A DNA stretch of 64,000 nucleotides from Hormiphora californensis. Its lineage: Eukaryota; Animalia; Ctenophora. The translations under genes and the position numbers were made by a program. Positions 22,401-33,300 of this stretch are shown here, piece by piece; position 1 is the stretch's first letter; each line of letters starts with the position of its first letter. The notes beneath the pieces are model-generated. The model was not told the DNA's origin and did no database searches. It saw only the letters and a program-made list of their open reading frames with translations. The stretch is taken from positions 4,278,001 through 4,342,000 of the forward strand of contig CM035355.1 in NCBI GenBank assembly GCA_020137815.1, read 5' to 3'.

Positions 22401-25400
22401 CGCATGAGGAAGAAAACTGCATGATAGCAATGCAACCTGAAGATTTGGAAGAGAAGAAGTTGTACTACCGACACAAAACCTTCACCCACTCTGAAATCCA
22501 CCCTGCAATGATCCTAGGGGTGTGTGCCTCTATCATTCCATTCCCTGATCACAATGCTAGCCCCAGGAACACCTACCAAAGCGCTATGGGTAAGAAACAG
22601 GGGGAATAAACTAGGGCTTATATCTTGTTCATGTTGATTAGTAAAGGTGTCTTGGAGCACCGTAATTTTAATTAACCACTAATTACTTGTGCAGGTAAGC
22701 AAGCAATGGGTGTGTATATCACCAATTTCCATATTCGTATGGACACCCTTGCACATGTCCTGTTCTACCCCCAGAAACCTCTCTCCACTACTCGCTCCAT
22801 GGAGTACCTTCATTTCAGGTGATTATTCCATATATAGGGGGGGGGGGGCCTGCCGCAAAAATCTCAGCTACCCTCTTTTCGGCCGATGAGATTTTTGGGA
22901 AAATTTGCTCAATTACGTTTGAGATTTTTGAGATTTTTGTGGTAAATATACTGTACTATGGACTTCCGAAGAAATACATCAACCTTCTACAGAAGACTCT
23001 ACACTCCTGTGTTCGGTTCGTGTATGGTCTTCACGGACATCAAGATGATTATACGCCGTACCTGAAGGAAATGCATGTCCTTCCTATTGAACAGAGGATT
23101 GTGTTCAAAGCCTGTCTTACAGCCTACAAGATTGTTCATCGAACAGCTCCGGAATACCTAACTGACAGAGTACCAGTGTGTGATGAGGTGGATAGTCTAC
23201 GCCTTACGAGGGCCACCGCTATTCCAGACGAGTTCAGGCTGCGGTTCCCGAAGCTCTCTAGTGTCAACGCCAGTTCCAAACTGAGGAGGAGGCGACCGTC
23301 TGTGTATTTACCTAGCCTGTGGAACAATCTTCCCTTGGACATGAGATCTATTCAGCTCGTTGACTCTTTCAAGACAAGACTGAAGACCCGACTGTTTACG
23401 GAGGTATTTGGGTCGTCGGAAGGTGTAAGTACTCCTTAGGACTTGTAATCAGTTTTTTTTTTTTTTTTTTTTTTTTTCATTCTTTTTCGTTTGGAACAGT
23501 TTGTATCGGATTTTTAATCAGCATTTTTTCTGAGGGTTTGAAGCACGAGTGGATATTGTGTGAAGCAGTGTGAATTTGATCTATACAGGATTATTTTGGG
23601 ACTTTTATCCATTTAAGTCAGTGATTGTCATCAGTTTTTTTCCCCACATTATGTGAGCCGTTTTAATTCAGTTTTTCCAAGTTGGTCTTCTAAGAGAGTG
23701 TTTTTTTCTAACTTTGTATCCCGCTCTGATTGCCGTCAGTGGTAGTAGTTATATTTTGATCTATTGCCCCTGGACGGTATGGGCGGAATATAAGTACGTG
23801 TATTATTATTATTATTATTATTATTAAATTGGCACAATTTTGGCTGCCAATACTCAGTTTTTCGACATATTTTTTAGCTTAAAACTGAATCATAATAGCA
23901 GTTTAGTAATTTAAATAGGTAGATTTCATGTTTTAGCTTCACATTAACTTTTGTACTAGAACACAAGGAAAATTTCTATTCAGAATTTTGATTTTTGGTA
24001 GAAAAACACAAGGATTGTTTCTATTCCAAATTTTCAAATGGAAATTTTTCCTTTCTATGAGATTTTTGAGAAAAATTTGCGGGTTTTCCCCGAAAAATCG
24101 CAAATTTGCCTCAAAAATCTCAAAAATCCCACTTTTTTTAGCCAAAAATCGAAAATCTCAAAAATCCCAGCTACCCTGAAAATCGCCAATGAGGCATGAG
24201 ATTCTTGCGGCAGGCCCCCCCCCCCCCCATATAGGCATGGTGCATTGTTATTCCATATTTGGTCAGCGGAAATAAAGCTCTACTTATCTTCTTTGTTTCT
24301 ATTTGTTTTAAAAACCTCTCCCTCTCTTCAGAGAATTGCCGGCGGGTATTAACACCATTGTGGGTATCATGTCCTATACGGGATACAACCAGGAAGATTC
24401 CGTTATCCTTTCACAATCTGCCATCGATCGAGGCTTCTTCAGATCAATCTTCTACCGGTGAGTCTTAATTAATTAATTAATTAATAATTAAGAGTCTTCC
24501 CAGTCTTAAGGATTATTGATACTTGAAGTTTTAGCATTAATATCAACTTAGTAATATTTTATTGCATCCGAGAGTTGTGCCAGCTTATTAGCTGTGTCAC
24601 ATAGTAAGCGATGCAAAATGAACACACACACCCAGAGTTTTCGCTAGCAACAGATCGTTAGTTTCTGTTCCTTGATAGTAGGCCTTGGGACATTAATATT
24701 TCTAGAACAAAGATTGTTTCGACATGTAATGTCCCCAAATAACACTGACAACCCCATCAGGTCATACCGAGACAGTGAGACAAAGAAGGGTCTGGATCAG
24801 GAGGAACAATTTGAACTACCTGAGCACTCCTCCTGTACTGGCATGAGAAGAGCTTCGTATGAGAAGTTGGAAGATGATGGTCTTGTAGCACCAGGAATGA
24901 GGGTACGTTGTGTGTTTTTGAAGAGTGGATAATGTTCACAGTTCACTACTAGAATCAAATATAACAGAAGCAGCTCACCACTCTGTCACTCACCACTCTG
25001 CCCACACTTTTACAAACATTGTTGTTTTCTCTAACCTCCCCCATTCCCGTAGGTGTATGGGGATGATATTATCATTGGTAAGACGTGCATGTTACCCGAC
25101 GAGGATGTGGAAGACAATGCACCCAAACGATTCCTGAAGAAGGATTGCTCCTCGGCATTGAGGTAACTGGGTGGGTTGCTATGGTAATTGGGTGGGTTGC
25201 TATGGTAACTGGGTGGGTTGCTATAGTAATTGGGCGGGTTGCTATGGTAACTGGGTGGGTTGCTATGGTAACTGGGTGGGTTGCTATGGTAATTGGGTGG
25301 GTTGCTATGGTAATTGGGACGGTTATTAAATCCATCACTGGAAGATGATCCACCTGAAACCTCATCCCCATGCATCCGAGAGTTGTGCCAGCTTATTGGC

Positions 25401-30300: not shown

Positions 30301-33300
30301 TCCATCACTGGAAGAGCTTCATCACCTGAAACCTCATCCCCTTGCATCCGTTGGTTACGAAGTCACCCCTATTATTGCATATAGGGGTGACAATACCGCC
30401 TACCTAAAAATGAAAATTTACAGGACCTTCTCATGAAAAGTTATCGAAAACTTGTCTAAAACCTATCTAAAACGTATGGGACTAGTTTGTATAGTAACCA
30501 GGACCTGAATTCTACAGAAAGTAACGACCGGTAGCGATTCCACCACATGTTTAACAACAGAGGTGTGTCGCATAACTCCTTATATGGGCATAAAATTCCA
30601 ATCTTGTGGAATTTTTTCTGACTCGACTATAGCTTAGTTATCAATGAATCCACCTCTAATACCTTTGGAATGGCATTTTGCACATTTCTGAAGCTTTTTG
30701 TAGCCAAATTCCAGCATCTTCATAGTTTTCCAAAAACAAAAACAGTGTTAATGGCCAAAATATCGAAAAATTCCGGTATGTAATGGTAGCTCAGACAATT
30801 TCCTCGGTATGTTCAAAAAATTAGAACTTTCTGTTTTGTAGTTTGGACACAGGAATTTTTTTCCCGCCGTACAAGCGATATTATTACCCCTCCGTGAGCT
30901 AGCGCAGAGGGGTAATTTCATTACCAATTGCATCCGAGAGTTGTGCCAGCTTATTAGCTGTGTCACATAGTTAGTGTTGCAAAATGAACACACACACCCA
31001 GAGTTTTCGCTAGCAACAGATCGTTAGTTTCTGTTCCTTGATAGTAGGCCTTGGGACACTATTCACCCATTTCCCTTGCCATATCTAATGTCTAAATTTT
31101 AATGCTGAAGGACTTCTTAAATTCTTCAGATACGCTGAAATAGGACCGGCCGATCCCCGTGATGTAAAGACTATTGGTCATCATGTTAGACCCATGTTAC
31201 CCAGAGGACTCGTCATATCAGAGGCACCAGGTACATATTGATGTGGTATACTGAAAGATATGAGACTGACAGGTGACAAACTGACAATTGATTATTGACA
31301 AACTGTGATTTGTATTACTGAGAAGTTACAAACCAACAATTCAATATCTAACTGACCGACAATACACTACTGACAAACTGACACGCACAGTTGAGATACG
31401 AGGTAGTGGAAGTGAAAAGAAGTTTGTAATTCGAGAGCGACGTACATTCCTTGACCAGTACAGGGCGGGTCAACAGCAACAGCGACACAAACCTAACTGT
31501 GAGAGAAATATTTAGTGTGTTTGGGTGTTATTTTGGTGTTTTGTGTTGGGGTAGTTTTGGTGTTTTTTTTTTGGTGTTGCCTTGATGGGCCTTGATGTTC
31601 AATGTTGTTTTGGGAACAAAATAGAGTGACTGACTTGAAACAAGTTACTATCTCCTCAGCTTACTCCCCTCCCTCTCCCTAGATAATCTGCCCAGTAATA
31701 AGGGAACGAGAGCAAGAGAAGCGTTGCCGCCTGCTGAAGAGAAGAAGGGTGAAGACCCCCTTCATACTTACCTCAATATTTTAGGTATGTGATTTAATTC
31801 TTTTAATAATTCAGCGGTAACTACTATTCTGGTAGCATCTGATTTTACTAATTTGTAACACCCCTCTCTTCCCTCTAGTGGGTATTATAGCGGTACTGGT
31901 GACTGTTATGATTGGTGTTATAGTTCTCCTTCTCTCAATGTTACAAAAAGTGAAATCTGAATCTAACACTACGAACATTCTCGGTAAGACCTTTTCTTTT
32001 ATGTGACCTATCGACTGCATATAATTTAGTTCTTGACCCCTTGATATTCTTTCCAGGAGCGACTCTGAACCACAATAACAAAGTATCAAAACACACCCTC
32101 ACTGTCGGCAAGATAGATATCTATATGAGTGAGATAATTGGACATGGCAGTGAGGGGACTGTTGTCTTCAAGTTAGTATATTTATTTGTTACTTTTTTTA
32201 TTACATAGCAAAATATGGGCAAAGCCCTGTGACAATTGTGTGTGAGAGTTTTCAGGCGCGTTCCAGTCACTCCGCACAAGAACTAGCGCGCGCGGGACAG
32301 AATTATAGCCAAACCACCCATAGCGTGTAATCAACGGGACGTTTTTTGTGCGCGTCCCCGCGCAGTTTCTCTCTAGTATTGTGTGTAGAATGTACATTTT
32401 GAGTGTACACAGTGTATAATTATACAAGTGTAATTAACACCCTTCAATCACAGGGGCCAATTTGAGAAAAGAGACGTGGCAGTCAAAAGGGTGTTACTGG
32501 ATTTTATTGACATAGATTTACACGAGGTTGAGCTGTTACGGCAAGCTGATGAACACCCAAATGTTATCAGATATTTCTGTATGGTAAGTTGTACAGAGTG
32601 TTACTAAAACAGTAACCTCTACCTAATACAACTAGTATCAGGTCTTATGACACCCTTTATCACAGGAGACAGACAGTATGTTCCGGTACATAGCGCTAGA
32701 GATGTGTAGGGCCTCTCTAAGGCAGTACGTTGAGGGGGACATATTTGTGAAAAACGATGCTCAGAATAAATCGTTATTGGAGCAGACCATTGCGGGAATT
32801 CAACACTTACACTCTCTAAATATTGGTATGTTGAAAACTTTTTAGAATTAGTTGTGACCCCGCATCCGAGAGTTGTGCCAGCTTATTGGCTGTGTCACAT
32901 AGTTAGTGTTGCAAAATGAACACACACACCCAGAGTTTTCGCTAGCAACAGATCGTTAGTTTCTGTTCCTTGATAGTAGGCCCTGGGACATATCCAAGTT
33001 TCACAAATTCACATTTTCTCTACTCTCATCCCCCTAACACAATCCATTATATTTCAGTTCACAGGGATATTAAGCCTGGTAACATTCTGATTACTAAAGG
33101 ACAGAAGTCTGGTTTGAAGGCTCTTATCTCTGATTTCGGACTGTGTAGAAAGATTAGCGATGGAAGGCAGTCTATGACTGCACGGACTGGATCTGCTGGA
33201 ACCGACGGGTAAGATTGAAAATTCAGCTCCTCTCCTAATTCATGTCATAATGTTCCTCTCTCTCTGCAGCGCCCTAATGTCCCTCTCTCTCCCAGGTGGA

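What the first reader, a model, noticed from the sequence alone, without database searches (positions are those of the whole stretch)
24563..32993. Multicopy intronic H/ACA snoRNA family spreading through introns of two unrelated neighbouring genes (POLR2B, IRE1)
Seen: a ~132-nt sequence occurs 5 times in full (24563, 25371, 28188, 30929, 32862) plus one fragment (30204). All are on the sense strand, with one full copy per intron. It folds as hairpin - AAATGA (ANANNA H box) - hairpin - ACA+3 nt. Four of five copies end 64-68 nt upstream of the 3' splice site. Two variable sites preserve pairing (U-A vs U-G in the apical stem; G-C vs G-U in the ccca/tggg stem). It has no TIRs or poly-A tail. 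Established: this architecture and length are those of intron-encoded box H/ACA RNAs. Inference: an amplifying snoRNA family that colonises introns across a co-transcribed gene cluster.
Basis: partly seen in the sequence, partly recalled or inferred. Interest (0 to 1): 0.9.

Follow-up and report, generated by a model that had tools for sequence, protein, structure and literature searches.

The report
Five-copy ctenophore rRNA-modification guide RNA
Five near-identical copies of a small RNA gene lie in introns of two neighbouring genes of what is likely a comb jelly; the RNA is predicted to guide two conserved chemical marks on ribosomal RNA and likely spread by ordinary DNA duplication, a known process, although yeast and humans use two separate guides for these two marks.

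Summary
The repeat is real: five 132-nt copies (124-129 of 132 identical) on the sense strand, one per intron, two in POLR2B and three in IRE1; the host is likely a ctenophore. [quoted passage not shown] The 5' pocket pairs 6+6 (6+4 in the POLR2B copies) around large-subunit U2260 (yeast numbering, helix 69), 14 nt before the H box. The 3' pocket pairs 8+8 around U2349, 14 nt before ACA (or 6+10 around U2351). All are known pseudouridines. Rfam gives a weak, full-length match to SNORA62/E2 (E 9e-4, 27.5 bits against a gathering score of 80), strongest in the 3' hairpin. The 5' pocket fits the U19/snR191 site instead. Spread was at DNA level: a POLR2B copy and an IRE1 copy share about 100 nt of upstream intron (86 of 100), later split off by a 577-bp inverted-repeat element with a 9-bp target duplication. 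Variable sites show a conversion-like mosaic. Expression, the host's own rRNA, genome-wide copy number and co-transcription were not shown. Multi-copy intronic snoRNAs, host switching and guide shuffling are all in print, so this is a modest variant of a known kind.

The parts
24564..24695 (+). snoRNA copy 1, in POLR2B intron 24458-24760; 5' pocket 6+4 with one mismatch
25372..25503 (+). snoRNA copy 2, in POLR2B intron 25163-25568; best Rfam SNORA62 match of the three copies scanned alone (27.5 bits, E 9e-4)
   Evidence: intron seen spliced in run X5
28189..28320 (+). snoRNA copy 3, IRE1 intron 2 (27720-28453), 133 nt from the 3' splice site
   Evidence: 28194-28440 matched without difference by two 151-nt records of run X2
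28195..28200 (+). 5' strand of the 5' pocket (shown for copy 3); pairs 3' of LSU U2260
28227..28232 (+). 3' strand of the 5' pocket (copy 3); pairs 5' of U2260; starts 14 nt before the H box
28241..28246 (+). H box (ANANNA) of copy 3
28264..28271 (+). 5' strand of the 3' pocket (copy 3); pairs 3' of LSU U2349
28301..28308 (+). 3' strand of the 3' pocket (copy 3); starts 14 nt before ACA
28315..28317 (+). ACA box of copy 3
30206..30236 (+). 5' fragment (31 nt) of the snoRNA in IRE1 intron 6
30244..30343 (+). intron block homologous to the upstream flank of copy 2; the original upstream flank of copy 4
   Evidence: 86 matches, 12 mismatches, 2 gap columns
25274..25371 (+). upstream intron flank of copy 2 (tandem repeat end plus unique DNA), shared with IRE1 intron 6
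30351..30927 (.). 577-bp element with imperfect terminal inverted repeats and a 9-bp target-site duplication (30342-30350 / 30928-30936), inserted at the 5' edge of copy 4; likely a non-autonomous DNA transposon
   Evidence: relatives at 63260-63717 (92%) and 47770-47833 (both ends only)
30930..31061 (+). snoRNA copy 4, IRE1 intron 6 (30042-31129)
32862..32993 (+). snoRNA copy 5, IRE1 intron 13 (32826-33057)
   Evidence: joint 32823-33057 in run X5 (table 5c)
19467..26647 (+). host gene POLR2B (RPB2)
   Evidence: tblastn with P0002, exon chain, Pfam RNA_pol_Rpb2_6/7
27281..35044 (+). host gene IRE1, 18 exons, open frame of 1066 aa
   Evidence: Pfam Pkinase and Ribonuc_2-5A; several junctions

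Best explanation
[quoted passage not shown] Shown: copies, gene models, boxes, pocket-target pairing and spacing, the shared flank, the transposon footprint, the four-gamete pattern. From established knowledge: such RNAs are trimmed out of excised introns, bind dyskerin/NOP10/NHP2/GAR1 and convert the unpaired U held 14-16 nt from the box. Inferred: that the RNA is expressed from each copy; that the host rRNA has the same target letters; that the 64-68 nt distance to the 3' splice site is kept by selection; that ectopic recombination moved an intron block with its snoRNA from one gene into the other; that conversion then homogenised an inner tract (positions 43-48) within each gene.
For: Pockets: with the pocket fixed by the fold, the best site in a full eukaryotic SSU+5.8S+LSU set (L031, Rfam-confirmed) is U2260 for the 5' pocket of copies 3-5 (6+6 Watson-Crick; 1 of 300 shuffled guides as good) and U2349/U2351 for the 3' pocket (8+8 and 6+10, each with one G-U; 0 of 300 each). 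Numbering check: 15 of 15 yeast modified positions carry the expected letter in L031, 14 of 15 in L028 (table of PMC5699541). Spacing to the boxes is 14, 14 and 16 nt. Rfam, blind to my reading, puts SNORA62 first for 3 of 3 copies scanned alone (E 9e-4, 4.5e-3, 0.08), end to end, with both strands of the 3' pocket conserved; human SNORA62 guides 3830/3832 and U19 guides 3741/3743, and 3832-3743 = 2349-2260 = 89. Selection or homogenisation: copy 2 versus copy 4 differ at 5 of 129 snoRNA positions but 14 of 100 flank columns (Fisher p 0.007). DNA route: shared 100-nt upstream flank (0 of 300 shuffles), no poly-A tail. Conversion: sites 27 and 122 are incompatible with 43, 46 and 48 in all 6 pairings.
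Against: No mature RNA was seen: on copy 3, 1 of 4 runs gave two 151-nt records that run on through the intron, the other 3 gave none. The rRNA used is from other eukaryotes; L028 lacks the 3' target match and only 3 of the fetched loci (L031, L033, L037) show the exact context. In copies 1 and 2 the 5' pocket is weaker (6+4, mismatch at the fifth pair), and its best site by score lies elsewhere (12 of 300 shuffles as good). Single-pocket matches are cheap: a loose scan of the window gave more than 100 rows with 12 or more pairs. The SNORA62 score is far below the gathering score of 80. No two-sided covariation (0 of 35 pairs); whole-RNA folding z-scores are weak. The 3' flanks share no significant similarity (best 34 of 500 shuffles). 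Two recurrent mutations could mimic conversion. No homolog was found in other genomes.
Confidence: 0.82

Rival explanations
1. Same guide RNA, but the copies spread through an RNA intermediate (retroposition of the snoRNA or of an intron-bearing precursor), as described for mammalian H/ACA families.
For: Homology stops sharply at the RNA ends for most copy pairs; human H/ACA families are thought to expand by retrotransposition (PMC8178906 passages). A reverse-transcribed intron or pre-mRNA could also carry upstream flank.
Against: All five copies lie within 8.4 kb, sense, intronic; no A-tail (0 of 5) and no shared pattern of target-site duplication; copies 2 and 4 share 100 nt of intron upstream of the mature 5' end.
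Confidence: 0.1
2. It is a plain SNORA62/E2 ortholog whose 5' hairpin is orphan or decayed, and the match to U2260 is chance.
For: Rfam aligns the whole RNA to SNORA62; the 5' pocket is imperfect in copies 1 and 2; loose scans give many single-pocket matches.
Against: In copies 3-5 the pocket is 6+6 Watson-Crick at the canonical 14-nt spacing, top-ranked, 1 of 300 shuffles, and falls on one of the two most conserved rRNA pseudouridines. At U2347 (E2's 5' site by my reading) the same pocket gives only 3+2 or 3+3 pairs, in a shifted register.
Confidence: 0.06
3. It is a SINE, MITE or other non-functional intronic repeat that happens to fold.
For: The locus is rich in repeats and local duplications; no Rfam match at gathering level; no expression shown.
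Against: Two independent pockets at canonical spacing both hit known pseudouridine sites; 5 of 5 sense and intronic; no terminal inverted repeats noted in the fold, no Pol III boxes, no tail; more conserved than its shared flank.
Confidence: 0.02

Closest known systems
SNORA62/E2 (Rfam RF00091, SNORA62/SNORA6 family)
   Same: Top Rfam match over the whole length for 3 of 3 copies scanned; both strands of the 3' pocket are conserved; human E2 guides 28S 3830 and 3832, the latter equal to yeast 2349 by spacing.
   Different: 19-28 bits against a gathering score of 80; 132 against 154 nt; the 5' pocket fits U2260, not U2347/3830; hosts are POLR2B and IRE1, not RPSA; five copies.
U19/SNORA74 and yeast snR191
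   Same: Guide the helix-69 site 3743/2260 (E. coli 1917) that the 5' pocket fits.
   Different: No Rfam match to these families up to E 10. They guide both 2258 and 2260; here 2258 fits only by opening the upper stem at a 12-nt spacing.
Yeast snR82, Neurospora Nc ACA2, nematode ceN58
   Same: snR82 guides 2349 and 2351; Nc ACA2 carries the 2351 guide in its ACA hairpin; the ceN58 model shares the 3' pocket letters (E 0.23 and 6.1).
   Different: Their other hairpin serves other sites (snR82: 1110; Nc ACA2: 26S-1868); the 5' target of ceN58 was not looked up successfully (one search found no paper).
Cis- and trans-duplicated intronic snoRNA paralogs (chicken, sponges, Xenopus, human)
   Same: Paralogs in neighbouring introns, moves between genes, five-copy H/ACA families and shuffling of antisense elements are all described.
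   Different: Here the second host is the adjacent gene, the move left a dated DNA footprint (shared flank cut by a later transposon), and an H/ACA family shows the recombination pattern that PMC8178906 ascribes mainly to human C/D families.

Membership tests
Box H/ACA guide snoRNA | Hairpin-hinge-hairpin-tail fold of about 120-160 nt | tested here: met
   Consensus fold; minimum-energy fold in 2 of 5 copies, upper stems in the centroids of all 5; z-scores weak
Box H/ACA guide snoRNA | H box (ANANNA) in the hinge and ACA 3 nt from the 3' end | tested here: met
   Positions 53-58 and 127-129 in 5 of 5; conservation ends at ACA. The true 3' end was not mapped.
Box H/ACA guide snoRNA | Bipartite pocket with at least 3 pairs each side and 8 in all around an unpaired UN | tested here: met
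   6+6 or 6+4 at U2260; 8+8 at U2349; 6+10 at U2351; thresholds from PMC6800473 passages; rRNA of other eukaryotes used
Box H/ACA guide snoRNA | Target U 14-16 nt from the box | tested here: met
   14, 14 and 16 nt
Box H/ACA guide snoRNA | Sense-strand intronic location or own promoter | tested here: met
   5 of 5 in GT-AG introns; introns of copies 2 and 5 seen spliced
Box H/ACA guide snoRNA | Stable discrete RNA bound to dyskerin; target pseudouridylated | not testable with these tools
   Only contigs of mixed marine runs were on offer
SNORA62/SNORA6 (RF00091) | Score at or above the Rfam gathering threshold (80 bits) | tested here: not met
   27.5, 24.4, 19.4 bits
SNORA62/SNORA6 (RF00091) | 3' hairpin guide for 28S 3832 (yeast 2349) | tested here: met
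   Both pocket strands align to the family consensus and pair 8+8
SNORA62/SNORA6 (RF00091) | 5' hairpin guide for 28S 3830 (yeast 2347) | tested here: not met
   At most 3+3 pairs in a shifted register; assignment of 3830 to E2's 5' hairpin is inferred
SNORA74/U19, snR191 | Sequence/structure match to the family model | tested here: not met
   Absent from Rfam lists up to E 10
SNORA74/U19, snR191 | Guides both 2258 and 2260 | tested here: not met
   2260 fits; 2258 only non-canonically
scaRNA | CAB box (UGAG) in an apical loop | tested here: not met
   None in copies 1, 3, 5; snRNA targets not tested
SINE / snoRNA retroposon | Pol III boxes, A-rich tail, target-site duplications, dispersed copies | tested here: not met
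   0 of 5 with boxes or tail; no common duplication; dispersal not testable

The most novel reading that the evidence does not exclude
Ctenophores have handed the near-universal helix-69 pseudouridine (E. coli 1917) from U19/snR191, reported as conserved from yeast to humans, to a retargeted 5' hairpin of an E2/SNORA62-lineage RNA; this RNA is actively colonising introns of adjacent, possibly polycistronic genes by ectopic recombination and conversion, and survives only about 65 nt before the 3' splice site, a splicing-coupled position rule of the kind described for C/D snoRNAs.
Probability: 0.2. Interest if true: 0.55.

Novelty: new variant of a known kind. Interest (0 to 1): 0.32.

Why it matters
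If right, it is an unannotated ctenophore guide for one of the most conserved rRNA modifications and pushes the E2/SNORA62 3' hairpin to an early branch of animals, with a guide pairing not seen in the yeast, Neurospora, chicken or human tables read here. The locus also keeps an unusually clear record of how a snoRNA changes host gene: shared intron flank, a later transposon that dates the move, and a conversion mosaic. Xenopus and chicken papers name the mechanisms as plausible or enigmatic rather than shown. It does not define a new kind of element.

Tried and rejected
Whole genome: none held, so copy number, orientation bias and the presence of a separate U19 are open. Rfam at gathering level on the window: 0 matches; at E up to 10 on 8.7 kb: 7 matches, none on a copy; the SNORA62 match appears only when single copies are scanned. 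Viral contigs held no rRNA motif match (0). A metagenome scan with a two-pocket pattern gave 29 loci; 2 of 29 had a loose 3' strand plus ACA-like motif and none, judged by eye from the folds, had the full architecture; L063 looked hairpin-like but sits in what looks like coding DNA. Reads: runs X1, X3 and X5 laid nothing on copy 3, X2 two single-read records; contigs cannot show ends or strand, so this is neither for nor against expression. The host's own rRNA was not obtained. A scan for other C/D or H/ACA snoRNAs in the window gave only chance-like rows. The 7-nt 'stub' at 30344 was first taken for a broken sixth copy and rejected: it is part of a 9-bp target-site duplication. 3' flanks show no significant similarity. 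Earlier findings of this scan: nothing. Two papers sought by id were not held. Searches for prior description: 'ctenophore'+'snoRNA' (15 papers, 12 listed, none by title or abstract start on ctenophore snoRNA families), snoRNA gene conversion, H/ACA intron position, ceN58 (0), U19 with E2 sites (1 review). Supplements were not read; supplementary table 1 of PMC6984369 and the tables of PMC5824354 may list the same guide pairing in other species.
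Full report
Observation. A blastn of copy 1 against the window returns five full copies and one 31-nt fragment and nothing else above 13 nt of exact match. The copies run 24564-24695, 25372-25503, 28189-28320, 30930-31061 and 32862-32993, with 124-129 of 132 letters shared. Identity begins and ends at the predicted RNA ends. 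A covariance model built from the five finds no further full copy in 64 kb with filters off.

Host and genes. The last exon of the upstream gene is RPB2 (Pfam). It is 95% identical to a Mnemiopsis leidyi protein and 78-79% to the three non-ctenophore proteins compared, so the host is likely a ctenophore; runs that hold parts of the stretch are marine. The downstream gene gives an 18-exon open frame of 1066 aa with kinase and RNase domains, i.e. IRE1. Copies 1 and 2 lie in POLR2B introns 24458-24760 and 25163-25568, copies 3-5 in IRE1 introns 2, 6 and 13. Their 3' ends are 65, 65, 133, 68 and 64 nt from the acceptor. Contigs show the introns of copies 2 and 5 spliced; the other three rest on homology and frame continuity, as they are not among the joints shown (20 further joints were cut from view).

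Anatomy and targets. The consensus fold is hairpin, H box (53-58), hairpin, ACA (127-129). To find targets I fetched eukaryotic rDNA that contaminates prokaryote assemblies and confirmed it by Rfam (4 of 37 loci scanned; L031 holds SSU, 5.8S and LSU, L028 a full LSU). The fetch used a recalled helix-69 motif, so the 5' target was anticipated by eye; the ranking was then done over every U of these rRNAs. In copies 3-5 the 5' pocket ranks one site first, 6+6 Watson-Crick pairs in helix 69; the 3' pocket, for which I had no prior target, ranks first two registers 89 and 91 nt further on (6+10 and 8+8). Setting the first site to 2260 puts the expected letter at 15 of 15 yeast modified positions in L031 and 14 of 15 in L028 (table in PMC5699541, passages). 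The sites are thus yeast 2260 (snR191) and 2349/2351 (snR82). Shuffled guides reached the observed score in 1 of 300, 0 of 300 and 0 of 300 trials. Spacing to the boxes is 14, 14 and 16 nt. Against this: copies 1 and 2 carry a mismatch in the 5' pocket (6+4), their best-scoring site is elsewhere and 12 of 300 shuffles match it; 6+4 still exceeds the reported minimum of 8 pairs with 3 each side (PMC6800473, passages). The 3' target context is exact in L031, L033 and L037 but not in L028 and others, and the host's rRNA was not seen. A loose window-wide scan gives more than 100 single-pocket rows, so the case rests on two pockets, fixed geometry and known sites together. Folding energy alone is weak (z -0.36 to -1.75) and there is no two-sided covariation among such young copies (0 of 35).

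Family. Rfam finds nothing at gathering level. Scanned alone, copies 2, 5 and 3 all give SNORA62/SNORA6 as top match over the full length (27.5, 24.4, 19.4 bits; E 9e-4, 4.5e-3, 0.08; gathering 80), with both 3' pocket strands conserved. Human E2 guides 3830/3832 and U19 guides 3741/3743 (PMC6466398, passages); 3832 equals yeast 2349 by the same 89-nt spacing (inference). E2's 5' hairpin serves 3830 (chicken table, PMC2653536 section 6; Neurospora table, PMC2780460 passages), and the 5' pocket here does not fit that site. So the RNA works like E2/snR82 in its 3' half and like U19/snR191 in its 5' half; it fails the membership tests of both families. Yeast 2258 and 2260 equal E. coli 1915 and 1917, and their loss alters ribosome dynamics (bioRxiv 10.1101/2024.02.02.578723, passages).

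How it spread. The 98 nt upstream of copy 2 in POLR2B match 30244-30343 in IRE1 intron 6 (86 of 100 columns; 0 of 300 shuffles). That block is separated from copy 4 by a 577-bp element with imperfect terminal inverted repeats, flanked by a perfect 9-bp duplication that includes the first 7 nt of the snoRNA; the element has a 92% relative at 63260-63717 and a two-ends-only derivative at 47770-47833. Copy 4 therefore arrived with intron DNA that lies outside the mature RNA, and the insertion came later and left the RNA intact. The snoRNA differs at 5 of 129 positions between copies 2 and 4, the flank at 14 of 100 (p 0.007). Copies 3 and 5 share an 11-nt upstream word (0 of 300). Sites 43, 46, 48 split the copies by gene, while sites 27 and 122 group copies 2 and 5 across genes; all six cross pairings show four gametes, which fits gene conversion or two recurrent mutations. 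No copy has an A-tail or Pol III boxes. The most likely route is ectopic recombination between nearby introns; an intron-bearing RNA template cannot be excluded.

Not shown. Expression: on copy 3 one of four runs gave two 151-nt records identical to the window and running through the intron; this confirms the sequence in another sample but not a mature RNA. Co-transcription: genes in this stretch are all on + with 296, 320 and 633 nt between stop and start where measured, and POLR2B contigs end near 26914-26946, but no listed contig bridges the two genes; ctenophores trans-splice, yet operons were not reported in them as of PMC7986045 (passages). No homolog turned up in metagenome contigs (0 convincing of 29).

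Comparison with print. Cis- and trans-duplication of intronic snoRNAs are described in chicken (PMC2653536, passages) and sponges (PMC3412847, passages). Human H/ACA families are larger and thought to spread by retrotransposition, C/D families by cis recombination (PMC8178906, passages). Xenopus has five-copy H/ACA families, moves within and between genes, and frequent shuffling of antisense elements, with only 39% of H/ACA orthologs functionally conserved (PMC6984369, passages and discussion part 1). Fungal families switch targets (PMC5824354, passages and section 25 part 1). Host associations are unstable across vertebrates, and position dependence is cited for C/D snoRNAs (PMC13736004, abstract and passages). 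The listing for 'ctenophore' and 'snoRNA' showed no paper on ctenophore snoRNA families, and the search for the U19 and E2 sites together gave one review; supplements were not read.

Verdict. What is particular is the pairing of guides and the clear DNA footprint of a move into the neighbouring gene. Both belong to known processes, so interest is modest (0.32); the bolder reading (U19 replaced, position rule, operon-wide spread) is testable and put at 0.2.

Noticed in passing
window 30351-30927; 63260-63717 (-); 47770-47833 (-): Family of non-autonomous elements with imperfect terminal inverted repeats and a 9-bp target duplication (Mutator-like by duplication length, recalled); run X4 also shows internally deleted forms (joints 30381-30908 and 30370-30902).
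   Followed up: partly
window 21969: POLR2B changes frame here in tblastn; a contig of run X4 lacks one base at this place while X5 does not show the gap, so an assembly indel is likely but not certain.
   Followed up: partly
window 19590-19910 and 27690-28140: The end of POLR2B exon 1 and the end of IRE1 exon 2, each with its 5' splice site, are repeated several times inside the following intron; local duplication of exon ends seems common here and could give alternative donors.
   Followed up: no
window 14219-26647: Tight + strand gene run: RPS3A (coding part without introns), a GIDE/RING E3 ligase (MUL1-like), a further short open frame near 16500-17100 that was not identified, Beclin/Atg6, POLR2B, IRE1 (Pfam); a candidate for operon-like organisation.
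   Followed up: partly
window 22950-23830: The long POLR2B intron holds what reads by eye as the 3' end of a LINE-like element followed by T-rich and (TTA)n tracts.
   Followed up: no
window 30170-30243: The 31-nt snoRNA fragment has its own upstream flank with a short word resembling that of copy 5 and is joined by a G-run to the copy-2-type flank: possibly the scar of an older copy overwritten by the incoming block.
   Followed up: partly
L001, L028, L031, L033, L037 and others: Several prokaryote genome records carry eukaryotic rDNA (Rfam-confirmed for L001, L021, L028, L031), i.e. contamination in those assemblies.
   Followed up: partly
window 35560-36400 (-): A spliced gene appears to lie on the minus strand, converging on the IRE1 3' end; not identified.
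   Followed up: no
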